From: Eledone cirrhosa
Taxonomy: Eukaryota
Length of the DNA stretch: 64,000 nt
Reading direction: 5' to 3'
Assembly (NCBI GenBank): GCA_964016885.1
Contig: OZ024743.1
Span: 72,726,001 to 72,790,000 of the forward strand
Shown: positions 5,292 through 63,783 of the stretch, piece by piece
Numbering within the stretch: position 1 is the stretch's first letter
Layout: each line of letters opens with the position of its first letter
Program-made: the position numbers and the translations under genes
Notes under the pieces: model-generated
Seen by the model: the letters and a program-made list of their open reading frames with translations, nothing else
What the model was told of the DNA's origin: nothing
The model's database searches: none

Positions 5292-5349
<58 letters not shown>

Positions 5350-5356: not shown

Positions 5357-5359
5357 AAA

Positions 5360-12525: not shown

Positions 12526-14857
12526 AAGAAAGGAGCGAAAAAGTGGAGGGAGTGCATGCTCAGGATGAAACTCCAAATGAAAATAATGAGATCGTAAATG
12601 ATAAAGAAATGAATGAGAATGAACTTGCCAACTTGAAGGATGAAATTATGATCGAATGGATGAAAATGAAAGAATCTGACATGGGGGAACGAGACACCCT
12701 CCCTAAGATCCAGAACTCCAAACAGAACCAAAAGATAATACACAAGACTAACATAATTCTCAAAAACATTATCATCACAAACAAAATAAACATTACTGAC
12801 TTAAATCATCTCTATTATGCATCGGCTAAAGTCACCACTCACTTATGTGGAGTGAAGATGAAAAAACAAAGGAATTCCCACAAGAAATCTACTTGGCAAG
12901 ATAACATCAATCGCCAAATAAACCTTCTCCGATCTGACATAGAAATTTTAACAAACTATAAAGTAGGTGAACATGTTAAACAAACTAAACTTAGAAAATT
13001 GAAAAAAAAGTACAGTATAAGATCAACATGTGACATAGACATGCTGATAGAAACAATCAAGCAAAAAGTGTCGGCCAAAGCTGCTCGTATAAGGCGCTTT
13101 GAAAAACGATCTAGATTCTATAAGGACAATAATATGTTCAAAAACAACCAAAGAAACTTCTACAGAAAAATTGGTAAGTCAACAATAACTGCTAAATCAA
13201 TACCACCCAAGGAGGAAGTGCAAGAATTCTGGGAAAAGATCTGGGCCGAAGAAAAAGTTCATAACATACATGCCCCATGGATAGACAGACAAATGAAAGA
13301 AACAGCTCACCTTGAAGAACAAACATGGGAAAATATAACAGTTGAACAGCTGCGCTTGGCTCTAAGAAAAACCAGCAAATGGAAATCCCCAGGAAAAGAC
13401 AAAATACAAAACTTTTGGATAAATGCCTTCACAGAGTCTCATGAGCTGTTAGCCCAACTTTACAATGAAATAGTTAAGGAGCCAGAAAAGATACCATCAT
13501 GGCTAGTTAACGGCATTACATTCCTGCTACCGAAGAATGATGAGACAAACAATCCCAAAAATTACAGACCGATAACCTGCTTGACCACAATGTATAAAAT
13601 TTTAACATCAGTCCTAACTGAATACACATATGACCACCTGATAACAAATGACCTATTTCCCATTGAGCAGAAAGGGTGTAAACGAGGCTCATATGGCTGT
13701 AAGGATCAGCTTCTGGTTAACAAAATGATACTGGAAGATTGTCATAATAGACACAAAAATCTATCGATTGCTTGGATAGATTATAAAAAAGCATTTGATA
13801 GTTTGCCACACAGTTGGATTGAAAAATGTTTAGAGATTTTCAAAATATCCCCCGTTGTCAGGAGGTTTTTGTCATTCAGTATGAGGACATGGAGAACGAC
13901 ACTCCTTTTGAATAGTGAAACAAAATCACTGGAAGCTGGAGAAGTTAACATTAATTGTGGAATTTTTCAGGGTGACTCTTTATCACCGCTTTTATTCTGC
14001 ATCGCACTTATACCATTAAGTAAAATGCTCAATGAAACAAAACATGGATATAGAGTCTATGACAAAACCATTAATCACCTGTTCTACATGGATGACCTGA
14101 AACTATTTGCAAAAAATGATGAACAATTGCAAGGGCTATTATCCACTGTGAAGCAGTTCAGTGATGACATTAAAATGGAGTTTGGACTGGATAAATGCGC
14201 CAAAGCAACGTTCACCAGAGGAAAGCTGCTGAAGAGTTCAGACATTAATCTTGATCGGGGGAACGTGATAAGAGAGCTTGATCAAGAACAAACTTACAAA
14301 TATCTAGGTGTTTGTGAAGGAGACGGAATCAAGCACTCGACAATGAGGGAAAAGATAAGGAAGGAATGTTACCGCAGAGTCAGAGCAATCTTAAGAACGG
14401 AATTGAATGCAAGGAATAGGATCGATGCCATAAACACGCTTGCCATACCAGTAGTAACCTACAGTTACAATGTCATCAACTGGTCAAGCACAGAGATCCG
14501 TAGGCTCGATACAAAAATCCGAAAATTCTTAACCATGCACAGAATGCATCACCCTAAGGCAGACATATATAGAATATATCTCCCTAGGAAAGAAGGAGGA
14601 CGTGGGTTAATCCAGTTAGACATTGCGTTGAAAACTGCAACAATTGGATTATCCACATATCTAAGGGAATCACATGATTGGATGATCAAACTCGTTTTGA
14701 AACACGAAAGCACCAAAAGATCATATTCCATTACAAAAGATGCACAAAGATACAGTAATGGACTACAAATTTCAGAAGTCCCATTTACTGCTGAAATGGA
14801 AAACACAGAAAAAGCAAAGCAGGTAAAAGTAACTGCAAAGAAAGAACTGCTACAGAA
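12526..14857 (+). mobile_element. R4/Dong-like non-LTR retrotransposon, family A copy 1 (5'-truncated)
   Basis: Follows (AAT)n at about 12478-12525; uninterrupted RT frame; homologous to 25637-27787. Confidence 0.9.
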
Positions 14858-15068
14858 ATTGGCCGGGCAGGCTCGGGTAATAAGAGCTAATGGGTGGATA
14901 AGCGAGCTGGAACTGGAGGAACTCAGCAGAGTGATTAGATTGGAAATGGACAGTAGAGTATGCCACGCAAACGAGCCAGTGGGAGATGAAGATGGAGAAG
15001 AGGTTGAAAGAACGGAGGAAGCCTCCGAAGCAGACAATGATCTGAATGCTGAAATAAATAATACCTGA
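12543..15068 (+). CDS. 841-aa ORF: R4/Dong-type reverse transcriptase fused in frame to an N-terminal piece of family B
   Basis: WKSPGKDKIQNFW, NYRPITCL, EQKGCKRG..GCKDQLL, WIDYKKAFDS, GIFQGDSLSPLLF, YMDDLKLF, YKYLG; the last ~70 aa match ORF 18534-19136. Confidence 0.85.
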   Translation: MEGVHAQDETPNENNEIVNDKEMNENELANLKDEIMIEWMKMKESDMGERDTLPKIQNSKQNQKIIHKTNIILKNIIITNKINITDLNHLYYASAKVTTHLCGVKMKKQRNSHKKSTWQDNINRQINLLRSDIEILTNYKVGEHVKQTKLRKLKKKYSIRSTCDIDMLIETIKQKVSAKAARIRRFEKRSRFYKDNNMFKNNQRNFYRKIGKSTITAKSIPPKEEVQEFWEKIWAEEKVHNIHAPWIDRQMKETAHLEEQTWENITVEQLRLALRKTSKWKSPGKDKIQNFWINAFTESHELLAQLYNEIVKEPEKIPSWLVNGITFLLPKNDETNNPKNYRPITCLTTMYKILTSVLTEYTYDHLITNDLFPIEQKGCKRGSYGCKDQLLVNKMILEDCHNRHKNLSIAWIDYKKAFDSLPHSWIEKCLEIFKISPVVRRFLSFSMRTWRTTLLLNSETKSLEAGEVNINCGIFQGDSLSPLLFCIALIPLSKMLNETKHGYRVYDKTINHLFYMDDLKLFAKNDEQLQGLLSTVKQFSDDIKMEFGLDKCAKATFTRGKLLKSSDINLDRGNVIRELDQEQTYKYLGVCEGDGIKHSTMREKIRKECYRRVRAILRTELNARNRIDAINTLAIPVVTYSYNVINWSSTEIRRLDTKIRKFLTMHRMHHPKADIYRIYLPRKEGGRGLIQLDIALKTATIGLSTYLRESHDWMIKLVLKHESTKRSYSITKDAQRYSNGLQISEVPFTAEMENTEKAKQVKVTAKKELLQKLAGQARVIRANGWISELELEELSRVIRLEMDSRVCHANEPVGDEDGEEVERTEEASEADNDLNAEINNT

Positions 15069-17967
15069 GGAAATGAATGCTCACGGGCTAGGACAAGATT
15101 TGGTTGATATCCTAAACTTAGTGGTAGATGAAATGAACAATGATAGTGGGAAACCTATGGACCTAAGATTGCACCAGTGCAACAATATCCTCAAAGCAAC
15201 AGCAAATGCGGTGAGGCAATTACTTGGCATAAAAGCGAGAGGAAACAACAAACAAGAAAGATCAGAAATTTGGTGGAAGAAACGACTGAATGGTCAAATC
15301 AGGGAAATGAGAAATGACATTAGAAAGCTTGAGTCCCTACTGAATGGGACACTACAAACCTAGACACTAAAAATAGACTGGAAATAAAGTACAAAACTAG
15401 GAGGAAAGAGCTAAATGTTATCATAGAGGAACTGAAGCAACGCATTGTAGCAAAGAGCGCAACAATTTGGCGATACGAGAGCAGAGTCAGTCAGTATAGA
15501 CAGAACCGCATGTTTGACACAACCAGAAGATGTTTTTTGGATAGCTTGAAGGGAAAGAAAGAGGCAACGACTTGATCCCTGAGGCGGAACAAGCTAAGAC
15601 ATTCTGGAGAGGAATGTGGGAGCAGGATGTTAAACATAATGACCAGGCAGTGTGGATTGAGACAGTACAAAAGGAGATTAGTGAACAGGCACACCAACAA
15701 ACTGATTTGAGTATCACAGTTCAAACTCTTAAGGGGCAGGCCAGAAAAATGACCAACTGGAAATCATCAGGCCCAGATGTTGCGAGGGGCTATTGGATTA
15801 AAAATATAACATCCCTCCACCCGAAACTGACAACCATGTTCAATGACGGCTTGATGTAAGGTGAGGTGCCAGAGTGGTTGACAAAAGGTACTACAGTTCT
15901 GGTAATGAAAGACCGAACTAAGGGTAATGATGTTACGAAATATAGACCTATCACATGTCTGTCCGTAATGTGGAAACTGTTAACAAGGATTGTGTCTGAG
16001 GAAATCCACCATCACCTCCACATAAACAACTTGTTACCGGACGAACAGAAAGGATGCCGAAAGAAGTCCCGTGGTACAAAGGACCAGTTCTTATTGATAA
16101 GATGGTAATGAGGAATTGCAGGAGGAGACACACTGGTCTTGCCATGGGATGGATAGACTAAAAAAAGGTATTCGACATGGTACCTCATTCTTGGATAACG
16201 AAAATCCTAGAGATATTCAAGGTGGCAGATAACATCAGACAGTTGTTGGGCAAAAGTATGAAGTCCTGGAAAACAGAGTTAACATCGGGCGCAGAATCCT
16301 GGTGAGGCGTTAAGATCAAGAGAGGTATCTTCTAGGGAGATAGTTTGTCCCCTCTATTGTTTGTCCGTACCCTGATCCCCCTGACCATTATACTGCGAAA
16401 GGTGAGAGCAGGATACACGTTGGGAAAGGGAGAGCTTACCATCAATCACCTCCTCTTCATGGACGAATTAAGCTCTTCGGGAAGAGTGAGAAGGAGTTGG
16501 ATGTGCTTGTTGACACTGTCCGTATTTTCAGCAATGATATATGTATGCAATTTGTTATTAGTATGTGTGGAGTACTTGTAATGAAGAGGGGTTAATTGAG
16601 CAGAATCAACAGAATCCAGGTACCAACAGGTGAGATGATAAAGGAAATTGATGCTGAAGAAGGATACAAATACTTAGGTGTTCTGGAGGCTAAAGACATC
16701 AAGAACAAAGAAATGAAGGAATTGTTAAAATCTGAATATATTCGGAGAGTAAGGAGCGTATTAAAGTCACATCTGAAATGTAGGAATGCCATAAGTGCAG
16801 TAAATTCCCGATCTGTGTCTATTATTAGGTAAAGTGCGAGAATTCTGAGATGAAATGTTGCTGGACAAAAAGAAATAGATAGGAAGACTAGGAAGCTATT
16901 GACTATCTACAACATGTTCCACAAAAGGAGTGATGTCGATAGACTCTACTTAAAGAGATCTGAAGTTGGAAGGGGTCTTATCAGCATAGAGGACTGTGTT
17001 CAGATGGAGAAAATCAACCTACACAAATATGTGACTGATGGTAGGGAGCCAATGCTCAGAATTGTACTGAAGGAGAGGACAATAGACCAGGGGATGTCCA
17101 AGGAGGAAATAACAACAAGGAGAAAGAGAAACCTTCATGAAAAATCCCTTCATAGTGCCTTCTTTTAGAAAACTGAAATTAGAGATCCACAGACATGGAA
17201 CTGGTTGAAAAGAGGAGACCTTAAAAACGCTACAGGAGGAATGCTAATGGCTGCGCAAGAACAGGCTCTCAGAAGGAAGTGGCTGAAACACCATATTTAC
17301 AAGGAGGAGGCTAGCCCACTGTGTAGGATCTGTGGAGAGAGAGAGGAGCTGTGGCTCACATTGTATCCGAGTGTAAACACCTAGCCCAGACTCACTATAA
17401 AGGCTGCAGGCATGATGTGATGCGCAGGATGATCCACTAGCATCTATGCAAAGTAAACAATTTACCACATTCTGAGAAGTGGTATGAACATAAGCCAGAG
17501 TCGGTGATGGAAAACGATCAGGTGAAGGTGCTGTGTGATTTTAGGATACAGACGGACAAGAAAGTGGAACACAATAGACCTGACCTGGTGGTTTGGGACA
17601 AGGGAAAAACATCGTGCCTGATTGTGAATGTAGTCTGCCCATTTGACACGCGAGTGCAAGAAAAGGAGAGGGAGAAAATTAACCGATACCACTTCTATTG
17701 GGAGGTAAAAAGGATTTGGAACTGCCATGAGGTCAAAGTGGTCCCGATTGCCATAGGCGCACTAGGTACTATCTGAAAGAGTTTCCAGGGATGGTTAAAG
17801 AAAATTGGTCCCGCCCCGCTTTTTGGAACACTTCAAAAGGCATGCTTGCTGGGAACAGCAAGAACCCTCTGATACGTTCTGAATATCTGAGGCTGCAGGT
17901 AGTGGCTTGATATTCATTTCAACACACTTTCCAGTTAACCAACATCAATGACTGAGACTCAAAGAAC
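14858..17967 (+). mobile_element. R4/Dong-like element, family B copy 1 (decayed)
   Basis: RT fragments; CRICGE..HIVSEC zinc knuckle at about 17320-17375; RPDLVVWD..VVCPFD..EREK restriction-like endonuclease; (AAT)n tail at 17968-17996. Confidence 0.9.
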
Positions 17968-17996
17968 AATAATATTAATAATAATAATAATAATAA

Positions 17997-18348
17997 AAGG
18001 AAAATGTGGAAATTGAGAACTAAAACAATACCAGTGGTTGTAGGCGCTCTGGGAATGATACCTAAGGGGTCTAGTGATTACTTATCGCAAATCCCAGGAA
18101 ATCCGCGTATCAGAGAAATACAAAAGATAGTACTAATGGGAACTGCCCATATACTAAGGAAGATTATGTCAATACAAGTACATAACATGTCTAAACACCT
18201 AAAGATGCATGTGTGTGTATGTATGTTCTTTCTTTAACATGGCGGGCCTTGTTGACTCTTAAGGTCACTGGTTGTGACTTGGTGATAACTCGTATGAACA
18301 TAAAGCAAGATAAATGCAACTGTAATAATAATAATAATAATATTAATA
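17997..18348 (+). mobile_element. 3' terminal fragment of an R4/Dong-like element with (TAA)n tail
   Basis: MWKLRTKTIPVVVGALGMIP..EIQKIVLMGTAHILRK C-terminus, short UTR, TAA tail. Confidence 0.85.
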
Positions 18349-18519
18349 AATTTTGTATACGGACCGTCCTTATATCATAATTTTCTCCATTAAAATAACG
18401 GACCACATGTGTAAATAAAGAAACTGAATATCAGCCGAAACGCTACTCAGAATTTTAAATCAAATTGAAAAAAAAAACGATATATGTAAGTAACAAACTC
18501 TAAGTCCTCCTCTGAATAG

Positions 18520-21511
18520 AACTGTCATGGAGAGTGACCATGGGAAAAGGCTATAGGAAGCGGATTCATAACATCTGGAACGAGATTGATCTATTTAAGT
18601 TAGATGAAAAAAAATTGGCCGGACAGGCTCAGGTAATAAGAACTAAAGGATGGATAAGCGAGTTGAAACTGGAGGAACTGAGCAGAGAAATTAAGTTGGA
18701 CATGGAGAGTGGAGTATGTCAGGCAAACGAGCCAGTGGGAAATGAAGGTGAAGAGGTTGAGAGAGATGAGGAAGCATCCGAAGCAGACAATGATCTGAAT
18801 TCTGAAATAAATAACATCTTGGACAAAGATACGGCCATTGAGGAAATGAATGCTGACGGGCGAGGACAAGATTTGGTTTATATCCTGAACTTAGTGGTAG
18901 ATGAAATGAACAATGATAGTGGGAAACCTATGAACCTAAGATTTGTAGACAGGAAAAAGTTAAAAGAAACAACAGCTAAGGTAAACAAAGTCATCCCATA
19001 CCTTGAGGCGAGGAACCTTCACCAATGCAACAATATCCTCAAAACAAAAGCAAATGCGGTGAGAAAATTACTAGGCATAAAAACGAGAGGAAACAACAAA
19101 CAAGAAAGATCAGAACTTTGCTGGAAGAAAGACTGAATGGTCAAATCAAAGAAATGAGAAAAGACATTGGAAAGCTTGAGTCCCTACTGAATGGGACACT
19201 AAAAATAGACTGGAAATAAAGTACAAAACTATGCGGAAAAAGCTAAATATTATCATAGACGAACTGAAGCAACGCATTGTAGCAAAAAGTACAAAGATTT
19301 GGTGGTATGAACACAGAGTCAGTCAGTATAGACAGAGCCGCATATTTGACAACAACGAGAAGATGTTTGGACAGCTTGAAGGGAAAGAAAGAGACAACTA
19401 CATGATCTTTGAGGCGGAACAGATTAAGAAATTCTGGAGAGGAATATAGGAGCAGGATGTTGAACATAATAGTCAGGCAGTGTGAATTGAGAAAAGGGTA
19501 GGCCAAAAAACAAACAAACTGGAAATCACCAGGCCAAGATGGTGTGCCAGGGTATTGCATTAAACATATAACATCCCTCCACCCGAAACTGACAACCATG
19601 TTCAATGACAGCTTGATGTCCGGTGAGGTACCAGAGTGGTTGACAAAAGGTAGCACAGTTCTGGTAATGAAAGACCGAATCAAGGGTAATACTATAGACC
19701 TATCACATGTCCTTAATGTGGGAAGTGTTAACAAGCATTGTGTCTGAGGAAATCTACCATCACCGCCACATAAACAGCTTGCTACCGGACGAACAGAAAG
19801 GATGCCGAAAGAAGTCCCGTGGTACAAAGGACCAGTTACTTATTGATAAGATGGTAATGAAGAATTGCAAGAGGAGACACACTGGTCTAGCCATCGGATG
19901 GATAGATTACAAAAAGGCATTCGACATGGTACCTCATTCTTGGATAACCAAAAGCCTAGATTTCTTCAAGGTGGCAGATAAAATCAGACAGTTGTTGAGC
20001 AAAAGTATGAAGTCCTGGGAAACAGAGTTAACATCGGGTCGTGAATCATTGGGAGGCGTGAAGATCAAGAGTGGTATCTTCCAGGGAGATAGTTTGTCCC
20101 CTCTGCTGTTTGTCCTTTCCCTGATACCCCCTGACCGTTATATTGCGAAAAGTGAGAGCAGGATACAAGTTGGGAAAGGGAGAGCTTACCATCAACCACC
20201 TCTTTTCATGGACGATCTTAAACTCTTTGGGCAGAGTGAAAAAGAGTTGGATGTACTTGTTGACTGTCCGTATTTTCAGCAATGAGATACGTATGAAAGT
20301 TGATATTAATACGTGTGGAGTCCTAGAGATGAAGAGTGATAAATTGAGAAGAAGCAACGGACTCCAGGTAGCAACAGGTGAGATGATAAAGGAAATTGAC
20401 ACTGAAGAAGGATACAAATATTTAGGTGTTCTGGAGGCTAATGACATCAAGAACAAAAAGATGAAGGAATTGATAAGATCTGAGTCCATAAGGAGAGTAA
20501 GGAGCGTATTAAAATCACATCTAAATAGTAGGAATGTCATAAGTACAGTGAATTCATGAGTTGTGTCTATTATTAGGTACAGTGCATGCATACTGAAAAG
20601 GAATGTTGCTGAATAAAAAGAAATTAATGGGAAGACTAGGGAGCTATTGACTATCTACAACATGTTCCACGAGAGGAATGATGTCAATAGACTCTACTTA
20701 AAGAGATCTGAAGGTGGAAGAGGTCTTATAACCATAGAGGATTGTGTTCAGATGGAGAAAAACAACCGGCACAAATACGTGACTGAGAGTAGGGAGCCAA
20801 TGCTCAAAATTCTACTGAAGGAGAAGACAATAGACAGGGGATATTTTCAAGAAGGAGGCTAGCTCACTGTGTAGGATCTGTGGAGAGAGAGAGAGGAGAC
20901 AGTGGCTCACGTTGTATTCGAGTGTAAACACCTAGCCCAGGCTCACTATAAATCCTGGAGACATGATGTGATAGGCAGGGTGTTCCACTGGCATCTATGC
21001 AAAGTAAACAATTTACCACATTCTGAGAGGTGGTACGAGCATAAGCCAGAGTCGGTGATAGAAAACGATTAGGTTAAGGTGCTATGGGATTTTATGATAC
21101 AAACGGACAAGAAGTTAGAACACAATAGGCCTAACCTGGTGGTTTTGGACAGGGAAATCGTGCGTGACTGTAGATGTAGTCTGCCCATTTAACACGAGAG
21201 TGCAAGAAAAGGAGAGTAAGAAAATTAACCGATACCAGGACTTAAAGTTGGCGTTAAAAAGCATTTGGAACTGCCATGAAATCAAGGTCGTCCCGATTGT
21301 CATAGGCGAACTAGGTACTATCTGAAAGTGTTTCCAAGGATGGTTAGATTAGTCCAGCCCCGCTTTATGGAACACTTCAAAAGGCATGCTTGCTGGGAAC
21401 AGCAAGAAACCTCCGATACGTCCTGAATATATGAGGCTGCTCTTAGCGGCTTGATATTCATTTCAACAAACTTTCCAGTTAAATAACATCAATGACTGAA
21501 ACTCAAAGAAC
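18520..21511 (+). mobile_element. R4/Dong-like element, family B copy 2 (decayed)
   Basis: Colinear with 14858-17967; WIDYKKAFDMVPH, GIFQGDSLSP, FMDDLKLF; same 3' end gactgaaactcaaagaac+(AAT)n. Confidence 0.9.
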
Positions 21512-21532
21512 AATAATAATAATAATAATAAT

Positions 21533-24500
21533 GGTTTCTTTATTGGCTACAAGGGCTGACACAAAGAAAAACATTACAGATGGCACAAACGGTACAGGAC
21601 GATACAAATGGGTTTTGGCCGTGTAAAAAAGGTTATAACAAGATAGAGATATCAACAGTAGTTGATATCTCTATCTTGTAGTTCAAACAAAACAAGTAGT
21701 TCAAACAAAACAAGTTACCCAATAGGGGGGAAACTTCCGAAAGGCGAAAGCCACACAAAGACCAGGGCTACCCAGACCAGCAGGGCAAGCGCCCTCTATC
21801 AGTTTCCCACTCCTCAGTCTACAGGCGCATACTCAGTGCGGGACCGTTCACTCGGACCAGACTCGCCAATTTCACCCACCTTTCAACAAACTTACTAGAA
21901 GACAACACTTGCTTCTCCACTCAGGTTTTCTTCTTCAAATGAAACTTGAAAAAGTTAATCAGGGATTGGCCGAAGAGGAAAGTGTCCGTCTTCAACCCTT
22001 TCAACCTTGTCCACCACACAATCTCTTTCGCCATGGTCACCTGGCGGATGAAAACTGCCTGCCCTTCCTCCTCTTTAAAGGAGGGTGGCGGGGCTATCTG
22101 CACGATGGACTCAGTCCATAAACCGGATCCGTCCTACACGCAACAGCAGCTGTTCGACATAGCTCCACAAATCAGCAATCCTCGGTTTCGTCGCTCTGCG
22201 CGCATCTCGGACAGGCACGGCTAACGGCACCTCCGTGCCCTAGAGCTAATCCCGAACCGGCAACGCTACCCGGTAGCACTGCCAGGCCAGGTATTTTTGG
22301 AAGTTGTCCATAGGCTCCGGTCTGAAAGTTCTCTTGAAGAGAGCGAACAGCTGATCGTCTTCAGCGCCCAGGGTCTCCCCGAGAAAGTCGTCGCTCTTTC
22401 CCTCCACTAGCCCTCTATAGAGCGCCGAGGTGGATGTTCCACAGATACTAGTGCCCAGCTGGTAGAGGCTGATGAGCGCTTGAAGACATTCCAGATTCCA
22501 AGCTCTATCCCTCGGTCTTTTCCTGATCCAGGACTGCAGCTCCGTCAAGGAGACGAGGTGGGGAAAAGCGCGTCTGGCAAACGGCGACCACAACTGTTCA
22601 CCGTCAAGGAAGCACCAGAGATGTCGAATCCTCAGCGCATATTTGCGCATCATCAGCCACGGCATGCCTATTCCCCCACGCAACGGGCGTTGACAGCAAA
22701 TGGATCGTCTGACCATGAAAGCACGTCCCTTCCACAAAAAGCGGAAGTGAAGGCGCTCCATTTTGGTCAGAGTTGGGCGAGTTCAAGGTACGACGGTCAG
22801 GCGGTAGCAGATGACGGACGCTATGTACGCATTCGCCACCTCCGCACTACCATTGAGAGACAGCCTCCTCTCGGCCCATTTCTGGGTGAGAGAGGCTACC
22901 ATGCTCGTCACCTCGCTCCAGTTTTTCTCTATCTGGAAGACCGGACCGAACCAGACAACGAGCAATTTAATCGGTCCTTCCGTCCAGCGCCCCACGATGC
23001 TGTCGGACGGCATGTACTTGCCACTCCAGGTCCCGATTTGCAAGGCCACCGACTTTTCCTGGTTTATCTTTGATCCTGTTATCGCTTCGTATTCCTTGAG
23101 AGCGGTGTGTCGAGCATCTGGAAGAGTTTCGTGCTCGACACCAGCACGGTGACGTCGTCGGCGTAAGCTGACAGGATATCCCGCATCCTAGTTCGAGTGG
23201 GATCCCCCTCATCGTCTCCAATTTGTGAAATAACGGCTCGAGGGCTAGTAAGTACAAGAGGGACCTGAGCGGGAAACCCTGGCGGACCGAGTGCATGATG
23301 CTGAAAGGCTGCGACAGGTGACCATTCACCCTCGAGGACCGCAGCCAGGTACCGATGGTCGACCCTATCAAATGCTTTAGATTGATCCAAGTTAATCAGT
23401 GCCCCACCCGTGCCAGGTTCCTTAACCACCCTCTCTATGATGTATCGCATTAGATGGAGGTTGTCGTGGATTAATCTGTCCGGAATGGCGCATGTCTGCG
23501 CCTCTCCCACCAGATTTCCGACGACAAGCGCCAATCTCTTTGCTAACACCGTGGCCAAAATCTTAAACTCTGCGTGCAGCAGAGTTATGGGCCTGAAATT
23601 TTCTATAACGTCCCCCTTGTTCGGGTCTTTTCTCAGCAGCACCACCGCTCCCTGCTCACAAATCTGGGAATGCTCCCGTTTTGCAGCCAGTTGCAGTAGA
23701 CATCTGCCAAGAGGTCGCCGAACAAGTCTGACATATACGCATAAAGCTCGTAGGGTAGACCATCCATTTACCCATCGCTTCCCGTATTTCATTGGCTGTT
23801 ATCGACTTTTCGCAGCACTGCGATGCAGTCGTCGAGAGCCGCGGCAGTTCATCGAGGTATGAATCGAAGTCCATACTCCGATCCAGAGTTCAAGACGTCT
23901 GATAAGGTTGTTGAGGCTTTTACACCCTCCTGTCTTGTCTACTAGCCCCACATAATCCCAGCATGCATCTAAGATACCGTTCCACTCGCCCACTAACACT
24001 AAGGAGCGGGACGTTCCAAGAAAGGTCCCTAGACGTCAGAAGAAATCTGGCCGTCCTACTCCAGTTGGGGCGTAGACGGCTACTAGCCTGAAAGCATTGC
24101 CTTCGCTGCCGGTAACGTCCAGCACCACCGACTTACCTTATCGGTCCAGGAAGATGGCCCGTATGCGATTTCCAAGCCTCTCTGAAAAGCACTGCCACCC
24201 CTCCCCACGATCCTGGACAGCTGGGAGATGCCTATACATCGTAGCCGCCGAAGATCTGTGCGAAGCCTCGTGCTTCGGAGATTCTGTTCTCGCAGATGGT
24301 CACAACATCTATATTTAGTGTCCTGAGGTCGTTAAGCAGGTGACTCTTCTTCCAATATGACCCTAGGCCACGTACATTTATACTGCCTATTCTAAGTACG
24401 ACCATTTTGGATGAGAAACGGGGCAAGTGAGAAAGGGTCACTTACCTTGATCGTATGGTGAAGGGACAGTAGAACCGTCTCTTTGGGTGGTCATGGGTGT

Positions 24501-25489
24501 TTCCAAGAGGATATCAGTGTATATCCTCTTGGTAAACGACCCTCTGATGTTTCCAAATGCGTGGTGGAATTATTGTTTTAAAAGTTTGTACTATTCTCTT
24601 TTGACTTCAATGTTTGTCGGGAGAATTCTTGGTGTTGGTGGGGTGTAGTAGTTTTGTTTTGTGATGTCTGTGTGCTCCTTTATATGTTGTATGAGTTCTT
24701 TATTTGCCATGTTTATGGTTGTGTACTTTTTGGTGGGAGTGGTGATTTAGTTGCTGTTTTCTTGTTGTTGCTGTTGGATGTGTGTGTTTTGTTGTATTTG
24801 CGATGTTGGTGCTTTTGGTAATGCTGGTGGTGGTGTGGTTGTTGTTGTTGGTGGGGATGCTTGTGGTGGTGATGGCGGTGATGCTTGTGGTGGTGATGGT
24901 GGTGATGTTGCTGCAATTCTCGTTGCAACATTTACCCCTTTTTAAGTGCCTTCAATTTTGGAGGGTGAAGTTAAGGTTTTTTTTCTCTTTTGCTCTTTTG
25001 TGGCAGACCGTTTGACACTTGCCTCCCGACTCATATTCCATGTCAGATTCCGTGGCATCTGGGAGGGGAACGAGCTATACTGCTGTTGGTGGTGTTAGTG
25101 GAGCCCGCTCCGGCGATTTTGCCGCAGGTGTGGCTACTGCGACTGTTGGTGCCACTGCTGCCGCTGCTTTAGTTGTCCATGGCCTTGGTATGGGTGCCAC
25201 GTACGTTGCCCTCCTACTCACCATGGAAAGGTCTTCTGCCTCTGTTCCCTGCCTTGCTCTGGGTAGCAGTGGATCAGGTGTTGGAATGAGAGGGGCCCTC
25301 TTCTTGGCTGTTCTCTGCGGGTAGAAGGCCCTGAGGTAACCTTTCTGCCCACATAGATAGCACTTTGGGATGCTTCCATCCACGATTGTAGGGAGTTGGA
25401 GCCCTTCTTCAAGGTATTTGATGTCTGGGATGGCCTCGATGCACTCCTGGTCAGTCTGTATTAGAATTTGCATGCCTATTCCTGACCAG
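21533..25489 (-). mobile_element. Tx1/L1-clade LINE, copy 2 (5'-truncated, internally deleted)
   Basis: ORF2 remnant 21819-24405 homologous to copy 1; ORF1 zinc-knuckle remnant CYLCGQKG; AATAAA just before the (ATT)n junction; about 0.7 kb between endonuclease and RT is missing near 23880. Confidence 0.9.
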
Positions 25490-25637
25490 TTCAAATGGCA
25501 TGATTGCTGGGAACAGCAAATACCCTCAAATACGTCCTGAATGTTTGAGGCTGCAGGTAGCGGCTTGATATTCATTTCAACAAACTTTCCAGTTACATAA
25601 CATCAATGACTAAGACTCAAAGAACAATAATAATAAT
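25490..25637 (+). mobile_element. Family B 3'-end fragment with (AAT)n
   Basis: Matches about 21376-21532 and 17832-17975. Confidence 0.9.
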
Positions 25638-27787
25638 AAGATCCAGAACTCCAAACAAAACCAAAGGATAATTCACAAGAATAACATAACTCTCAAAGAC
25701 ATTATCATCACAAATAATCTAAACATTACTGATTTAAATCATCTCTAATATGCATCGGCTAAAGTCACCACTCATTTATTTGGAGTGAAAATGAAAAACA
25801 ACAAAGGAATTCCCACAAAAACCTACTTGGCAAGAGAACAGCAATCGCTAAATAAACCTTCTCCAATCTGACATAGACATTTTAGCAAACTACAAAGTAG
25901 GTTAACATGTTAGACAAACTAAACTTAGAAAATTAAAAGGAAAATACAGTATAAAATCAACAAGTGATATAGACATGCTGATAGAAACAATCAAGCAAAA
26001 AGTGTCGGCCAAAGCTGCTCGTATAAGGCGCTTTCAAAAACGATCTTGATTCTATAAGAGCAATAATATCTTCAAAAACAACCAAAGAAACTTCTACATT
26101 AAAATTGGCAAGTCAACAATAACTGCTAAATCTATACCACCCAAGAAGGAAGTGCAAGAATTCTGAGAAAAGATCTGGGCCGAAGATAAAGTTCATAATA
26201 TACAAACCCCATGGATAGACAGACAAATGAAAGATACAGCTCACCTTGAGGAACAAATATGGGAAAATATAACAGTTGAACAGTTGCGCTTGGCTCTAAG
26301 AAAAACCAGCAAATGGAAATACCCAGGAAAAGACAAAATACAAAACTTTTGGATAAATGCCTTCACAGAGTCTCATGAACTGTTAGCCCAACTTTACAAT
26401 GAAATAGTTAAGGAGCCAGAAAAGATACCATCATGGCTAGTTAATGGCATTACATTCCTGCTTCCGAAGAATGATGAGACAAACAATCCCAAAAATTACA
26501 GACCGATAACTTGCATGACCACAATGTATAACATTTTAACATCAGTCCTAACTGAATACACATATGACCACCTGATAACAAATGACCTATTTCCCATTGA
26601 GCAGAAAGGGTGTAAACGAGGCTCATATGGCTGTAAGGATCAGCTTCTGGTTAACAAAATGATACTGGAAGATTGTCATAATAGACACAAAAATCTATCG
26701 ATTGCTTGGATAGATTATAAAAAAGCATTCGATAGTTTGCCACACAGTTGGATTGAAAAATGTTTAGAGATTTTCAAAATATCCCCCGTTGTCAGGAGGT
26801 TTTTATCATTCAGTATGAAGACATGGAAAACGACACTCCTTTTGAATAGTGAAAGAAAAATCACTGGTAGCTGTAGAAGTAAATATTAATTGTGGAATTT
26901 TTCAGGGTGACTCATGATCACCGCTTTTATTCTGCATCGCACTTATACCATTAAATAAAATGCTAAATGAAACAAAACATGGATATAAAGTCTATGGCAA
27001 AACCAATAAGCACTTGTTCTATATGGATGACCTGAAACAATTTACAAAAAATGATGAACAATTGCAAGGACTATTATCCACTGTGAAGCAGTTCAGTGAA
27101 GATATTAAAATGGAGTTTAGACTAGATAAATGGGCCAGAGGTAAGCTACAGAAAAGGTCAGGAATTAATTTTGATCGGGGGAATGTGATAAGAGAACTTG
27201 ATCAAGAGGAAACTTACAAATATCTAGGTGTTTGTGAAGGAGACGGAATCAAGCACTCGACAATGAAGGAAGGATAAGGAAGGAATGTTACCGCAGAGTA
27301 GGAGCATTCTTAAGAACGGAATTGAATGCAAAGAATAAATCGATGCCATAAACATGCTTGCCATACCCGTAGTAACCTACAATTACAACGTCATCAACTG
27401 GTCAAGCACAGAGATCCGTAGGCTCGATACATAAATTCGAAAATTCTTAACCATGCACAGAAGTCAACACCCTAAGGCAGATACAGATAGAATATATCTC
27501 CCTAGAACGAGGACGTGGGTTAATCCACTTAGATAATTCTTTGAAAGCTGCAACAATTGGATTATCTACATATCTAAGAGAATCACATGATTGGATGATC
27601 AAACTCGTTTTGAAACACGAAAGCATCAAAAGATCATACTCCATTACAAAAGATGCACAAAGATACAGTAATGAACTACAAATTTCAGATGTTCCACTTA
27701 CTGCTGAAATGAAAAACAGAAATAGCAAAGCAGGTAAAAGTAACTGCAAAGAAAGAACTGCTACAGAAACTGACTAAGAAATGGCAA
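25637..27787 (+). mobile_element. R4/Dong-like family A copy 2 (stops/frameshifts, truncated at both ends)
   Basis: Colinear with about 12704-14857; ORFs 26227-26889 and 26960-27277. Confidence 0.92.
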
Positions 27788-27868
27788 TTGGTATGAACTT
27801 CCATATGTTTCTAACGATAAGTGTTCATAAACAAACAGACACAGACGCACGCACATATAAACATGCAT

Positions 27869-28262: not shown

Positions 28263-28719
28263 GCACGGAGTGGAATACATGCAACAGTTAAAACAAGGGA
28301 ATAGTCCAAATATTAAAGAGGCATTGAAGAAGCAGTTTTGAGAAAGGAAGAGTGCGATAAAAAATCATATGCAGGCATATGTGACTGCGTAAGTCATATA
28401 CATGAGAAGGTGACAAGCAAAGCTATTATGCATATATAGATGAATAAATACTGCAGTTGAAGCAAATATGTTAATGTATTAGAGTCTATGGTGGATGTTG
28501 AATGTTGATGGTGTTCGAATCAATGTGTGTTGATAATGTTCGAATTAATTTATTTATTTAACTTATCTGTAAAACAACTGATGTTCATACATTGAGCTAT
28601 TTCTCTTACTGGTAATAAGGTAATTAAGAAAGTACTGACCTTCCTATTTATAGTTGTTTATACTATATACATAACTATAAATGGTATTATTACTATTATA
28701 TATATACACACACACACAC

Positions 28720-28846
28720 TGAAATATCTATGATCGTCGGCAAATCACTGATGAGGGACTTATTTTATTACATGTTATCCATGTGCAACCTGCAGTATTC
28801 TTCTCCCCATTTTTTCACATATATTTACCTAAACTGCGATTCTGTT

Positions 28847-28930
<84 letters not shown>

Positions 28931-29910
28931 TGCTCCCTCGTTCTCTGTTTCTCCTACTTTCTTTCGCCCCCTCTGTCATGTCAGTTAATTCTTCCTCACA
29001 CTTCCACTCACTCACTCACTGTTTCTCCTCTTCTCACTTCACCCCGTTCGTGACGAAAACATTTTCTCTCTTTCTCACATTTGGATTCGTTCCCCAAAGG
29101 TCTTTTTTCTAAGCGCTCATGTATTCACCTAGCTTATGCTAACAGAATAACTATGAAGCTTGTTCCCTTCCTTCTACGGTTAGCTCTCCTCTTTGTTGTT
29201 ATCTTGTCTCACTCGCTTTACGCGTTTTAATTGTCCTAATAACTTAATTTAGTTATTATTGCACCGACGTGAGGTATGTGATTTTTAATGCAATGAAATA
29301 TCTATTATCGTCGGCAAATCACTGATGAGAGACTTATTTTATTACATGTTATCCATGTGCAACCTGCAATATTCTTCTCCCCATTTTTTCACATATATTT
29401 ACCTAAACTGCGATTCTGTTTTTTTTTCTCTCTCTCTCTCTTACTGCTCCCTCGTTCTCTCTGTTTCTCCTACTTTCTTTCGCCCCCTCTGTCATGTCAG
29501 TTAACTCTTCCTCACACTTCCACTCACTCACTCACTGTTTCTCCTCTTCTCACTTCACCCCGTTCGTGACGAAAACATTTTCTCTCTTTCTCACACTTGG
29601 ATTCGTTCCCGAAAGGTCTTTTTTCTAAGCGCTCATATATTCACCTAGCTTATGCTAACAGAATAACTATGAAGCTTGTTCCCTTCCTTCTACGGTTAGC
29701 TCTCCTCTTTGTTGTTATCTTGTCTCACTCGCTTTACGCGTTTTATTTGTCCTAATAACTTAATTTAGTTATTATTGCACCGACGTGAGGTATATGATTT
29801 TTAATGCAATGAAATATCTATGATCGTCGGTAAATCACTGATGAGGGACTTATTTTATTACATGTTATCCATGTGCAACCTGCAGTATTCTTCTCCCCAT
29901 TTTTTCACAT

Positions 29911-29912
<2 letters not shown>
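28720..29912 (+). repeat. Partial tandem repeat, 2.2 copies of a ~516-bp unit (pLTR-like)
   Basis: Unit starts at 28720, 29294 and 29810; copies differ mainly in (CT)n length; contains CTGATGAG. Confidence 0.9.
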
Positions 29913-29957
<45 letters not shown>

Positions 29958-30012
29958 AGTATGCATGTATACGTACATACATATATGTATACAGACGTAC
30001 AGTAGCATGCAC

Positions 30013-30045
<33 letters not shown>

Positions 30046-30203
30046 CATATGCATACAGGTACACATACATATATGCACGTATCAGTTTAGCGGCGCTTAT
30101 TATAACGTCGCTTTGTTCGTTTGTAAACAAACTGAACAGCCTGAATTTATGCCATACGGTGTTAAGGCAACCACGTCACCTTTTTGTTCAACACTGACAC
30201 AGG

Positions 30204-30248
30204 AACGATGTACTAGTTTCAAGCTTGTTAGCTATCATCAGCACCGTT
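30204..30248 (-). ncRNA. Type-I hammerhead ribozyme (H1), inverted-arm copy
   Basis: Exact reverse complement of 30420-30464. Confidence 0.85.
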
Positions 30249-30419
30249 TACCCATCTGCCAGTGAGAAATGAAATTTCGTTTTCATTTTGTTTCAATTTA
30301 TCGTTTTCGGTATGCCTGACCGATTTAACTCACTCAATATGCAAATTAGGCTGCTCAGCCGTTAATTTTCATAACGAAAGTATATACTTTCGAACGTTCA
30401 ACTATCTGGCAGATGGGTA

Positions 30420-30464
30420 AACGGTGCTGATGATAGCTAACAAGCTTGAAACTAGTACATCGTT
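30420..30464 (+). ncRNA. Type-I hammerhead ribozyme (H1)
   Basis: aacggtg-CTGATGA-tagct-aaca-agctt-GAAA-ctag-TA-catcgtt; 7-bp stem I, intact core, palindromic ACTAGT stem III; predicted cut after 30457. Confidence 0.88.
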
Positions 30465-30767
30465 CCTGTGTCAGTGTTGAACAAAAAGGTGACGTGGTTG
30501 CCTTAACACCGTATGGCATAAATTCAGGCTGTTCAGTTTGTTTACAAACGAACAAAGCGACGTTATAATAAGCGCCGCTAAACTGATACGTGCATATATG
30601 TATGTGTACCTGTATGCATATGTATATATATATGTATATATATATATATATGTGCATGCTACTGTACGTCTGTATACATATATGTATGTACGTATACATG
30701 CATACTTACATTTAAGTAAGTGCCATACTAAGAGTGAGAAATGAAATTTCGTTTTCATTTTGTTTCA

Positions 30768-30847
<80 letters not shown>

Positions 30848-30914
30848 GTATTCTTCCACCGGTTGCAACGTTTTTTGAAATATTCACTTCTGCGTTTACA
30901 GATTGACTTTGTTA

Positions 30915-38761: not shown

Positions 38762-38780
38762 TTACGTATATATATATATA

Positions 38781-39175
38781 TATATATGGATGTATATATA
38801 ATGTATTTTGCAATACACTTTATGCTTAGTTAAAAGCATTTTGAAGACCGTAAGCTATTGTTTTTTAGAGTAGTGACAAATTCACTTACTTTGAGCTCAG
38901 CAAACTATTTACTAGAATTCTATAAGAATATAACATCAGTGATCTCGGTAGACAGGTGGGAGTAGTTAGCCTTGATAAGCTTCAACAAAAGCGAAACAAG
39001 GCCTTGTCGGCTTATCTCCCCTGTTTGCTGAGATCAAAGTAAGTGAATTTGTCACTACTCTAAAAAAACAATAGCTTACGGTCTTCAAAATGCTTTTAAC
39101 TAAGCATAAAGTGTATTGCAAAATACATTATATATACATCCATATATATATTGCTATTTCAGAGCTCCAATTCTA

Positions 39176-39178: not shown

Positions 39179-39234
<56 letters not shown>

Positions 39235-39238
<4 letters not shown>

Positions 39239-40287
39239 TATGTATGTATGTATACGTACATACATATATGTATACAGACGTACAGTATTATGTATATATA
39301 TATACACATACATGCACACATATATGTATGCACGTATCGGTTTACCGAACATTTATTCTAATGCTCGGTTTGTTTGTTTGTAAAGAAACCAACAGCCCGA
39401 ATTACGCCGTTCAGTGTTTAGGCAACCACGTCACCTTTTTGTTCAACACGGACACATGAACGATGTACTAGTTTCAAGCTTATTAGCTATCGTCAGCACC
39501 GTATACCCTCCTGCCAGATGGTTGAACGTCTGAACGTATATACTTTCCTTATGCATATTAACGGCTAAGCAGCCTAATTTGCATATCGAGTGAGTTTAGT
39601 CGGCCGGGCGCACCGAACACGATAAATGGAATAGAATGAAACGAAATTTCATTTCTCACTCATAGTACGGCACTTACTTAAATGTAAGTATGTAAGTATG
39701 TATACGTACATACATATATGTATACATACGTACAGTATTATGTATATACATACATACATGCACACATATATATATATGCACGTATCGGTTTACCGAACAT
39801 TTATTATAATGTTCGGTTTGTTTGTTTGTAAACAAACAAACAGCCCGAATTATGCCGTACAGTGTTTAGGCAACCACGTAACCTTTTTGTTCAACACTGA
39901 CACAGGAACGTGTACTAGTTAATATGCATAAGCAAAGTATATACTTTCAGACGTTCAACCATCTTGCATGTGGGTATACGATGCTGACGATAGCTAATAA
40001 GCTTGAAACTAGTACAGCGTTCCTGTGTCAGTGTTGAACAAAAAGGTGACATTGTTGCCTAAACACTGTACGGCGTAATTCGGGCTGTTTGTTTGTTTAC
40101 AAACAAACAAACCGAGCATTATAATAAATGTTCGGTAAACTGATACGTGCATATATATATATGTGCATGCATGTATATATATACATACTACTGTACGTCT
40201 GTATACATATATGTATGTACGTATACATACATACATACTTACATTTAAGTAAGTGCCGTACTAAGAATGAGAATTTCGTTTTATTCT

Positions 40288-40291
<4 letters not shown>
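39235..40291. mobile_element. Family H1: ~1.5 tandem monomers (minus) joined to a plus-strand monomer
   Basis: 450-bp period (39235/39685); inversion at about 39920; CTGACGA-core hammerheads at 39460-39502 (-) and 39978-40020 (+); (TA)n flanks. Confidence 0.85.
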
Positions 40292-40351
<60 letters not shown>

Positions 40352-41105: not shown

Positions 41106-41700
41106 TTTACAAACAAACCGAGCATTATAATAAATGTTCGGTAAACCCATACGTACATATGTGTATATGTGTGCATGTATGCATATACATACTACTGTAC
41201 GTCTGTATACATATATTATATTTAAGTATCAGCCGTACTAAGAGTGAGAAATGAAATTTAATTTGTTCCATTTATCGTTTTCAGTACGCCCGGCCGACTA
41301 ACTGACTCGATATGTAAATTAGGCTGCTCACCCGTTAATATGCATAAGGAAAGTATATACTTTCAAACGTTCAATCAACTGACAGGAAGGTATACGGTGC
41401 TGATGACAGCTAATAAGCTAGAAACTATTTCATCCTTCCTTTGTTAGTGTTGAACAAAATAGCAACGATGGTTGCCCAACATTGTACTGCTAATAATTCG
41501 GGATGTTTGTTTAAAAACAAACTGAGCATTAAAATAAATGTTCGGTCAACCCATACGTGCATATATGTATATGTGTGCATGTATATATGTATATACATAC
41601 TACTGTACGTCTGTATACATATATGTATGTAGCTATACATACTTATATTTAAATATCAGCCGTACTAAGAGTGAGAAATGAAATTTTATTTTTCCCATTT
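41106..41700 (+). mobile_element. Family H1: ~1.4 tandem monomers, hammerhead with mutated stem III
   Basis: 427-bp period (41241/41668); CTGATGA..GAAA at 41394-41436; ends at the same point before (TA)n. Confidence 0.82.
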
Positions 41701-41764
41701 ATATATATATATATATTTATTAAAATAACAGTTTAAAGTTTAAGGAAAGAATCGCTGGACTCCA

Positions 41765-49618: not shown

Positions 49619-49685
49619 GTTGTGTATAATGGTAGCTATGGTGCTTCCATAGGCGGTATGCCAACATTAGCAGAGTAGAGTGTAG

Positions 49686-50020
49686 ATAGTATAAAGAAAA
49701 CGAAAAATCAGTGATGCATCTCGACTTAATTTATTGCGTGTTACAATTGTTTCGCCGACAGGTAGCTCGAGACATGGTCCTTGTATGGATCTGGCTGATT
49801 CTACTGCTGCGGGTTCTTTCAGACACGGTTGTTTCCTCTGGAGCAAATTTTATCAGTGATAAAATTGGCTCCAAACGAAACACCCGTGTCTGAAAGAACC
49901 CGCAGATGTAGAATCAGCCAGATCCATACAAGGACCATGTCTCGAGCTACCTGCCGGCGAAACAATTGTAACACGAAATAAATTAAATCCAGATGCATCA
50001 CTGATATTTCGTTTTCTTTA

Positions 50021-50026: not shown

Positions 50027-50099
<73 letters not shown>

Positions 50100-53437: not shown

Positions 53438-53442
<5 letters not shown>

Positions 53443-63381: not shown

Positions 63382-63754
63382 ATTTCATTTCTCACTCTTA
63401 ATATGCATAAGGAAAGTATATACATTCAAACGTTCAATCGACCGACAGTAAGGTATACGGTGCTGATGATAGTTAATAAGCTAGAAACTACTTCATCGTT
63501 CCTTTGTCATTGTTGAACAAAAGGGCAACGATAGTTGCCGAACACTATACGACTTAATTCGGGCTGTTTGTTTAAAACAAATCTAGCATTATAATAAATG
63601 TTCGATAAACCCATACGTACATATATATATGTGCATGTATGTATGTATATACATACTACTGTACGTCTGTATACATATATGTATGTACGTATACATACTT
63701 ATATTTAAGTATCAGCCGTACTAAGACTGAGAAATGAAATTTCATTTTTTCCAT
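63382..63754 (+). mobile_element. Family H1 copy with short 5' inversion
   Basis: atttcatttctcactctta is inverted relative to the 3' end; hammerhead at 63457-63499 with mutated stem III. Confidence 0.8.
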
Positions 63755-63783
63755 GTACATATGTATGTATATATAGGTGTATG

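What the first reader, a model, noticed from the sequence alone, without database searches (positions are those of the whole stretch)
29954..30770. Family H1: 430-470-nt tandem monomer with a perfect hammerhead; four loci in 34 kb
Seen: loci at 29954, 39235, 41106 and 63382; periods of 471, 450 and 427 bp; one hammerhead per monomer; stem II variants keep pairing (AGCT/AGCT, AGTT/AGCT); core CTGATGA or CTGACGA; all end at the same position, three of them directly at (TA)n. Inference: multimeric transcripts self-cleave to monomers that may circularise and be reverse-transcribed as greater-than-unit-length copies.
Basis: partly seen in the sequence, partly recalled or inferred. Interest (0 to 1): 0.85.

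Follow-up and report, generated by a model that had tools for sequence, protein, structure and literature searches.

The report
Penelope-borne retrozyme with U6-like promoter
This is an abundant 430-470-base non-coding repeat with a minimal hammerhead ribozyme motif, found in tandem and head-to-head copies inside (TA)n runs, likely copied by Penelope-type retrotransposons and predicted to be transcribed from a built-in promoter like that of the host's U6 RNA genes.

Summary
The family is real. There are four independent copies in the window and roughly 20,000 loci in this 3-Gb animal genome, with arrays of up to about 35 monomers. The class is known: it fits the animal non-LTR retrozymes, i.e. 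non-autonomous Penelope-like elements (PLEs).

- The hammerhead is minimal (2-bp stem III, palindrome ACUAGU, predicted to work as a dimer) and is intact in 3 of 6 window cores.
- Loci A and B are head-to-head inversions, not plain tandems.
- The shared end is one of two fixed ends 59 nt apart, the PLE 'tail'.

Not found in my literature searches:
- 41 of 51 inverted insertions carry one tailed and one untailed end (25 expected).
- Two insertions pair an H1 arm with the end of a coding PLE.
- H1 and two other hammerhead families carry TATGCAAAT(T/G)AG plus a TATA-like box upstream of the ribozyme. The same motif lies at -78 in this genome's U6, U6atac and MRP genes, and not in U1 or U2.

Against: the spacing is 4-6 bp short and both motifs sit in hairpins. 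Circles are neither shown nor required. No RNA data and no homologous coding parent were found.

The parts
29909..29949 (.). (TA)n target run, left of locus A
29950..30262 (-). Locus A inverted arm, monomer positions q147 to q455 (untailed end); its first 180 nt are identical to the forward arm
30204..30248 (-). Intact minimal type I hammerhead motif of the inverted arm; predicted cut after 30211
30261..30773 (+). Locus A forward arm: one 472-bp monomer plus 41 bp, ending at q42 (tailed end)
30304..30307 (+). TTTT run just past the tailed end, the only T4+ run in the family majority sequence; possible weak Pol III terminator (weak evidence)
30338..30349 (+). TATGCAAATTAG, identical to the -78 element of a U6 gene of this genome; also the 5' arm of a predicted RNA hairpin
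30381..30387 (+). TATA-like box, 43 bp after the start of the dodecamer (47-49 in the host Pol III genes), inside a palindrome
30420..30464 (+). Intact minimal type I hammerhead motif: 7-bp stem I, CUGAUGA, 4-bp stem II, GAAA, palindromic ACUAGU stem III; predicted cut 30457/30458 after GUA
30715..30773 (+). 59-nt tail between the two fixed ends (q455 and q42)
30774..30851 (.). (TA)n target run, right of locus A
39229..39920 (-). Locus B inverted arm, 1.5 monomers (period 450), q191 to q455; intact hammerhead core 39496-39472; dodecamer 39585-39574
39918..40298 (+). Locus B forward arm, q102 to q42; hammerhead core 39984-40008 with a stem I mismatch
41106..41701 (+). Locus C, 1.4 monomers (period 427); hammerhead 41400-41424 with damaged stem III and stem I; dodecamer variant 41311-41322
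63382..63757 (+). Locus D: 16-nt inverted stub, then q103 to q42 (0.8 monomer); hammerhead 63463-63487 with damaged stem III; no dodecamer

Best explanation
H1 is a non-coding tandem repeat with a minimal hammerhead motif and two fixed ends in (TA)n, likely a non-LTR retrozyme copied in trans by the reverse transcriptase and endonuclease of a Penelope-like element, and predicted to be transcribed from a U6-like promoter carried in each monomer.

Proposed cycle:
1. (Inferred, about 55%) The dodecamer plus TATA recruits Pol III near q150; read-through of a weak T4 gives RNA longer than one unit.
2. (Inferred) Two hammerhead halves pair through ACUAGU and cut some transcripts to unit length, which may circularise. 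The template is a circle or an uncut multimer, not a cut linear monomer.
3. (Inferred from the anatomy) The PLE endonuclease cuts both strands of a (TA)n run. Each end primes reverse transcription at one of two internal start sites 59 nt apart, usually one site per end and usually on the same RNA variant, occasionally on a coding PLE RNA.
4. (Inferred) The two cDNAs stop at random points and join head to head through 1-8-nt overlaps.
Because the promoter lies upstream of its own start site, only greater-than-unit copies would rebuild a transcribable unit.
For: Anatomy:
- Dispersed copies on many chromosomes; arrays of 474-bp units up to about 35 monomers; GC 36% and no sense ORF over 48 aa from ATG.
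- 65 of 113 loci are head-to-head pairs. 190 of 220 arms end at one of two positions, 143 of them at TA. 41 of 51 classed pairs have one end of each kind (25.3 expected, P 6e-6). 40 of 70 junctions overlap by 1-8 nt.
- Coding PLE-A in the same genome also ends at (TA)n, with a 60-nt tail (18 of the 27 copies scored) or without (4 of 27).
- L157 and L018 join an H1 arm head to head to the terminal 120-150 nt of PLE-A or PLE-B, TA at both outer ends.
- Both arms share one variant in L031, L036, L129 and L137, and in 7 of 7 young H1b insertions.

Hammerhead: intact in 47 of 72 loci; compensatory stems I and II between H1 and H1b; the double-hammerhead fold scores -21.0 against 2 x -7.5 kcal/mol.

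Promoter motif: at -77 to -79 in three U6 lineages, the best U6atac hit and RNase MRP; absent at that position in 11 U1 and 3 U2 upstream regions; exact in 62 of 72 H1 loci, always 43 bp before TATATA; also in H1b and the unrelated H3; absent from three coding PLE pLTRs.

Literature: PMC8557442, PMC11167929, PMC7229834, bioRxiv 10.64898/2026.07.22.740005.
Against: - No RNA evidence of any kind.
- No PLE with a homologous pLTR among four coding types tested (longest match 27 nt, on the opposite strand), so the helper is unnamed.
- Motif-to-TATA spacing is 42-44 bp against 47-49 in host genes, and insect Pol III promoters keep this spacing within 1-2 bp (PMC1761439).
- No upstream enhancer-like element like that of the host snRNA genes was seen in H1 (by eye).
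- Both motifs lie in predicted hairpins in all three families.
- The T4-free stretch is not significant (P 0.15-0.39).
- One 310-bp hammerhead tandem family lacks the motif.
- The motif count in 400 kb (4) is near the shuffled range (0-3); its three hammerhead-linked hits come from two loci.
- 4 of 7 U6 and 5 of 6 U6atac upstream regions displayed lack the motif; I read them as retrocopies, which is an inference.
- Only 15 of 26 multi-monomer loci are monophyletic.
- The chimeras could be deletions between neighbouring insertions.
- Loci were picked as best matches to core segments, which biases junction positions.
Confidence: 0.72

Rival explanations
1. H1 copies are solo or 5'-truncated pseudo-LTRs of a coding PLE family that my searches did not reach; the tandems arose afterwards.
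For: Minimal hammerhead, tail, inversions and TA target are all PLE pLTR features (PMC8557442, PMC6155905). 24 of 57 Xenopus retrozyme families match known TEs, nearly all PLE pLTRs (bioRxiv 2026.07.22.740005). Only four coding PLE types were tested, and each search scores only its best candidates.
Against: Monomers join exactly head to tail, up to about 35 units. None of 67 single arms continues into a shared upstream sequence at a fixed position. No similarity to the pLTRs of PLE-A, PLE-B, PLE-C or the Hydra-like element.
Confidence: 0.1
2. Classic rolling-circle retrozyme without its own Pol III promoter: arrays are read through by Pol II, cut to monomers, circularised, and the circle is the obligatory template. 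The dodecamer and TATA-like box are kept only as RNA hairpins.
For: 5' junctions are spread evenly round the unit, and arms reach 5-13 units. Young arrays are uniform with private single changes. Both motifs sit in stable hairpins (z to -5.6). Circles are shown for coral, mussel and axolotl retrozymes (PMC7229834).
Against: The 12-mer matches host Pol III promoters exactly in three diverged families. Its C stays unpaired in the A-type H1 and H1b hairpins, which fits sequence-specific selection. An uncut multimer explains the junction data equally well (PMC11167929).
Confidence: 0.13
3. A satellite or MITE-like DNA repeat spread by DNA-level events (recombination, break repair at (TA)n); the hammerhead is a relic.
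For: Foldback shape; long diverged arrays such as L037 and locally re-duplicated L034 show DNA-level growth.
Against: The arms have variable inner ends and two different fixed outer ends, unlike terminal inverted repeats. Chimeras with coding PLE ends exist. Ribozyme stems covary between families.
Confidence: 0.05

Closest known systems
Animal non-LTR retrozymes (Cervera and de la Pena 2020, PMC7229834; Li, Clavereau and Pollet 2026, bioRxiv 10.64898/2026.07.22.740005)
   Same: Non-coding, low-GC tandem units of a few hundred bases with one type I hammerhead each; monomer to multimer copies; dimer-type ribozyme as in amphibians; co-occur with PLEs.
   Different: The hammerhead is the minimal PLE type. 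Most insertions are head-to-head pairs in (TA)n with two fixed ends. A U6-like motif lies upstream of the ribozyme. No homologous pLTR was found. In the passages I read, neither paper describes a promoter or these end structures ('inverted' has 0 hits in the 2020 text).
Endonuclease-positive Penelope-like elements and non-autonomous Chlamys/MRC1 (Craig et al. 2021, PMC8557442; Frangieh et al. 2024, PMC11167929)
   Same: Partial tandems, an inverted 5'-truncated copy, an optional tail at one end, AT-rich or microsatellite targets, minimal hammerhead; in vitro, two internal start sites flank the tail and both target strands are cut and extended.
   Different: H1 encodes no protein. Its tail is 59 nt (30-40 in the papers, 60 in PLE-A here). 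The ends are systematically one tailed and one untailed, whereas the in vitro work saw no strand difference in start site. No 3' homology to an autonomous family was found.
Newt satellite 2 and schistosome Sm-alpha (promoters as cited in PMC2220036; the newt original was not held)
   Same: Hammerhead tandem repeat with a promoter inside the repeat unit; the newt one is of snRNA type.
   Different: The newt promoter is reported as Pol II snRNA-type and the schistosome one as Pol III (internal and tRNA-like, recalled). H1's motif matches this genome's Pol III external (U6, U6atac, MRP) promoters and not its U1 or U2 promoters.

Membership tests
Non-LTR retrozyme | Tandem units of a few hundred bp with a type I hammerhead in each; at least two consecutive complete units | tested here: met
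   L036 has 4.8 + 3.9 units of 474 bp; 47 of 72 loci have an intact motif. None of the four window loci has two consecutive complete units.
Non-LTR retrozyme | Non-coding, low GC, no LTR-type structure | tested here: met
   GC 35.6%; longest sense ORF from ATG is 48 aa, and the antisense 114-aa frame starts in the microsatellite. PBS and PPT were not searched separately.
Non-LTR retrozyme | RNA self-cleaves | not testable with these tools
   Supported only by motif conservation, covariation with H1b and a dimer energy.
Non-LTR retrozyme | Expressed as linear and circular unit-length RNA | not testable with these tools
   No RNA holder listed.
Non-LTR retrozyme | Target-site duplications when present | tested here: inconclusive
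   The flanks are (TA)n, so a duplication cannot be read.
Canonical type I hammerhead (Rfam) | Stable stem III and a match to a family model | tested here: not met
   0 Rfam hits; stem III is 2 bp round a 2-nt loop. It is the minimal variant.
PLE-mobilised element | Optional tail: two fixed 3' ends a short distance apart | tested here: met
   190 of 220 arms end at q455 or q42, 59 nt apart.
PLE-mobilised element | Inverted 5'-truncated copy and partial tandems | tested here: met
   65 of 113 loci are head-to-head pairs.
PLE-mobilised element | Microsatellite or AT-rich target, coding PLEs present | tested here: met
   143 of 190 fixed ends lie at TA; coding PLEs with long ORFs are present.
pLTR of a coding PLE | Lies directly 3' of an RT plus GIY-YIG ORF, or is homologous to such a pLTR | tested here: inconclusive
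   Not met in 67 single arms and four PLE types; the genome could not be scanned exhaustively.
Pol III type 3 (U6-like) promoter | Host proximal element | tested here: met
   Exact 12-bp match to the -78 element of a U6 gene; 62 of 72 loci.
Pol III type 3 (U6-like) promoter | TATA box at the host spacing | tested here: not met
   TATATA is present, but at +43 against +47 to +49 in the host genes.
Pol III type 3 (U6-like) promoter | T-run terminator, none inside the transcript | tested here: inconclusive
   T4+ at q45-48 in 67 of 72 loci; the T4-free stretch has P 0.15-0.39.
Pol III type 3 (U6-like) promoter | SNAPc and Pol III binding, transcription | not testable with these tools
   Needs ChIP or a reporter assay.

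The most novel reading that the evidence does not exclude
Several retrozyme families in this genome captured or re-evolved the host's external U6-type Pol III promoter. The tandem-plus-hammerhead design is what lets a retroelement carry a promoter that lies outside its own transcript. The insertions record a dimeric PLE enzyme that primes the two ends of a cut (TA)n run from the two start sites flanking the tail, one per end, which would explain PLE inverted repeats and one-sided tails.
Probability: 0.35. Interest if true: 0.78.

Novelty: new variant of a known kind. Interest (0 to 1): 0.52.

Why it matters
Two points would interest specialists.

1. How animal retrozymes are transcribed is largely open. 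Here three families carry the host's U6/U6atac/MRP promoter element upstream of the ribozyme, which gives a direct mutational test.

2. How PLEs make inverted repeats and one-sided tails is an open question named by Craig et al. 2021. These short, young, high-copy elements give a clean rule (one tailed and one untailed end, usually the same RNA variant in both arms, rare chimeras with coding PLEs) that an in vitro PLE system can test. H1b, with copies about 99% identical, is a ready candidate substrate.

Tried and rejected
- Rfam scan: no hit.
- Expression: no RNA holder listed. The runs laid are contigs of unknown kind. One sample also covers the untranscribed MRP promoter at depth 3-5, as DNA would. 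Summed depth on H1 is not a copy number and was not used.
- Cut linear monomer as the template: rejected (3 of 140 junctions at the cut site; 91 of 140 arms cross it).
- L1-type twin priming on one colinear RNA: fits locus A alone, rejected in general. The outer ends are fixed while the inner ends vary independently.
- Pol III terminator as the cause of the shared 3' end: downgraded. The T4 test is not significant, and PLE internal initiation explains it (PMC11167929).
- Pol II snRNA-type promoter: U1 and U2 upstream regions share a different element near -60 and lack the dodecamer.
- Helper search: PLE-A, PLE-B, PLE-C and a Hydra-like PLE have unrelated pLTRs. The PLE next to H1 in L040 is only a neighbour. 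L227 (Hydra-like) and L161/L334 (PLE-C) are ambiguous chimeras. In L152 and L194 the 5' flank reads like LINE coding sequence (by eye); unexplained.
- Circle fold z of -8.8: discounted, because TA-rich palindromes drive it and the fold lacked one base.
- TA-richness as the cause of local clustering: rejected (35 runs in 64 kb against 297 in 400 kb).
- One search returned nothing because of unsupported BLAST settings and was rerun.
- Earlier scan findings: none.
- Literature: searches found no paper on a U6-type promoter in a retrozyme or on this family. The library is partial, the newt promoter paper was not held, and the supplements of the 2020 and 2026 papers were not seen.

Full report
OBSERVATION. 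The window lies in a 3.0-Gb animal assembly (G000); the species was not determined. The four loci exist and are 74-82% identical to locus A. The periods are 472, 450 and 427 bp, and the predicted cut is 30457/30458. Positions below are monomer positions, q1 = 30260. Locus A is an inverted arm (29950-30262, q147 to q455) joined head to head to a forward arm (30261-30773, q2 round to q42), with (TA)n on both sides. Locus B has the same build. Locus C is a plain 1.4-mer. Locus D is 0.8 monomer with a 16-nt inverted stub.

RIBOZYME. The motif is a minimal type I hammerhead: stem I 6-7 bp, CUGAYGA, stem II 4 bp, GAAA, then AC-UA-GU and GUA or GUU. Rfam finds nothing, and single strands do not fold into it. 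Two copies can pair through the palindrome ACUAGU: -21.0 kcal/mol against 2 x -7.5, though the dimer's minimum is another fold at -25.5. Three of six window cores and 47 of 72 genomic loci are intact. Stem II hardly varies within H1. The sister family H1b (466 bp, copies about 99% identical) has compensatory stems I and II round the same core and palindrome. Reviews describe minimal hammerheads lacking helix III in PLEs and dimeric cleavage in newts (PMC6155905, passages). Cleavage is inferred, not shown.

ABUNDANCE. Three of 40 evenly spaced 10-kb stretches hold H1 (one long copy, two fragments), about 22,000 loci (95% range 4,600-66,000). Four in this window is more than expected (P 0.0015 to 0.054). 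They belong to three subfamilies, and the flanking 40 kb holds one more. Arrays reach about 35 units.

INSERTION ANATOMY. I examined 113 loci: the best hits of four DNA searches plus the window, after dropping duplicates and two arrays that ran off the fetched DNA. 65 contain a head-to-head pair (70 pairs; L034 gives four). Of 220 arms, 103 end near q455 and 87 near q42, 59 nt apart; 143 of these 190 abut TA, against 8 of the other 30. Of 51 pairs with both ends classed, 41 have one end of each kind (25.3 expected, P 6e-6). The q455 class is a wide, TA-rich window, so some assignments are soft. Inner junctions are spread round the unit: 3 of 140 at the cut site (3.3 expected), 2 at the predicted start (4.7 expected). 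91 of 140 arms cross the cut site, and 40 of 70 junctions overlap by 1-8 nt. Selection of loci biases these positions. Both arms share a locus-private variant in L031, L036, L129 and L137, but only 15 of 26 multi-monomer loci are monophyletic. In H1b both arms carry the same haplotype in 7 of 7 loci.

PLE LINK. Craig et al. (PMC8557442, passages) describe partial tandems, inverted 5' copies, a one-sided tail and microsatellite targets for PLEs. Frangieh et al. (PMC11167929, parts 1-2 of the text) show that a PLE protein cuts and extends both strands of AT-rich DNA, starts at two internal RNA sites that bracket the tail, is predicted to be a dimer, and does not need hammerhead cleavage. This genome holds abundant coding PLEs (RVT_1 and GIY-YIG hits for PLE-C; clade labels are from recalled motifs). 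PLE-A ends at (TA)n with a 60-nt tail (18 of the 27 copies scored) or without (4 of 27). In L157 and L018 an H1 arm is joined head to head to the end of PLE-A or PLE-B with TA at both outer ends. Two more cases are ambiguous, and two pair H1 with an unnamed repeat. None of 67 single arms runs into a common upstream sequence, and no tested pLTR resembles H1. H1 therefore behaves as PLE cargo, with its helper unnamed.

PROMOTER MOTIF. Three U6 lineages, the best U6atac hit and RNase MRP carry TATG(C/G)(A/T)AAT(T/G)AG at -77 to -79 and TATA near -30. Four other U6 and five other U6atac regions displayed lack it and look like retrocopies; ten more U6 loci fetched were not displayed. None of 11 U1 or 3 U2 upstream regions has it at that position. 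H1 has TATGCAAATTAG at 30338, exact in 62 of 72 loci and always 43 bp before TATATA; it is among the best-conserved 12-mers (98.8% against 91.8%). H1b and an unrelated family H3 (L104) have it too, 89-102 nt before the hammerhead core. Three of the four matches in the 400-kb sample lie upstream of a hammerhead, from two loci. The chance of the motif per monomer is about 7e-4. The three coding pLTRs displayed and a 310-bp hammerhead family lack it.

Against the promoter reading: the spacing is 4-6 bp shorter than in host genes, and insects keep it within 1-2 bp (PMC1761439, abstract and passages); both motifs lie in hairpins; the terminator test is not significant; nothing shows transcription. 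I put promoter function at about 55%.

MECHANISM. Shown: the repeat, the motifs, the two ends, the inversions, the chimeras. Inferred: transcription from the U6-like element with read-through; partial dimeric self-cleavage; a circular or uncut multimeric template; two-ended priming by a PLE enzyme at the two start sites; joining by microhomology. Circles are possible but not required.

COMPARISON. The class is the animal non-LTR retrozyme (PMC7229834: passages and Discussion; bioRxiv 2026.07.22.740005: parts 1-3 of 5), already proposed to be non-autonomous PLE derivatives. Internal promoters are known for newt and schistosome hammerhead satellites (as cited in PMC2220036, passages; the newt original was not held). 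Searches found no report of a U6-type promoter in a retrozyme or of this family; the library is partial and supplements were not seen.

VERDICT. A new variant of a known kind, interest 0.52. The circle model is published. The U6-like element and the one-tailed-one-untailed rule are the parts worth testing.

Noticed in passing
L040:1800-2345; L256; L261-L290; L336-L338: Sister family H1b: 466-bp units, about 99% identical copies, the same inverted build, two ends about 70 nt apart, GUC cut site, same dodecamer; probably the youngest member.
   Followed up: yes
L104:9330-10000: Unrelated hammerhead family H3 (palindrome AUGCAU in stem III), head to head at a TA run, with the dodecamer and TATA at +44.
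   Followed up: partly
L255:660-3470: 310-bp hammerhead tandem (stem III ACGCGU), about 9 units plus an inverted arm in (TA)n, just beyond the window; no dodecamer.
   Followed up: partly
window 38778-39160: Foldback element (98% identical arms, 38778-38905 and 39023-39151) directly left of locus B, ending at the same TA run, with a hammerhead-like stretch between the arms.
   Followed up: no
window 28717-29917: Another tandem family of period about 514 that ends at the TA run left of locus A.
   Followed up: no
window 57495-57918 (-): 5' fragment of a coding Penelope/Poseidon-like element (PLE-C), ending at (TA)n beside an assembly gap; many long-ORF relatives in the genome.
   Followed up: partly
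window 49683-50029, 53438-53554, 54280-54572, 55279-55532: Further short foldback repeats in TA runs, likely ends of other PLE-type families.
   Followed up: no
L087, L088, L089, L214, L291, L292-L305, L075-L086: snRNA promoter layout of this animal: Pol III genes have an octamer-containing element at -78; U1 and U2 share a TCAGT-type element near -60; most share a TTACCTCCCTT-like element near -250 to -285.
   Followed up: partly
L183, L184, L216: U6 and U6atac copies preceded directly by (TA)n without promoter, possibly retrocopies placed by the same TA-targeting machinery.
   Followed up: no
L259, L037, L260: H1 array of about 35 diverged units over about 21 kb, interrupted once; a satellite grown from the retroelement.
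   Followed up: partly
L152, L194: H1 5' ends fused without TA to sequence that reads like LINE coding DNA on the same strand; unexplained.
   Followed up: partly
window 192-5500, 12429-27800: Broken and near-intact LINE copies, including an 879-aa RVT_1 frame at 12429-15068.
   Followed up: no
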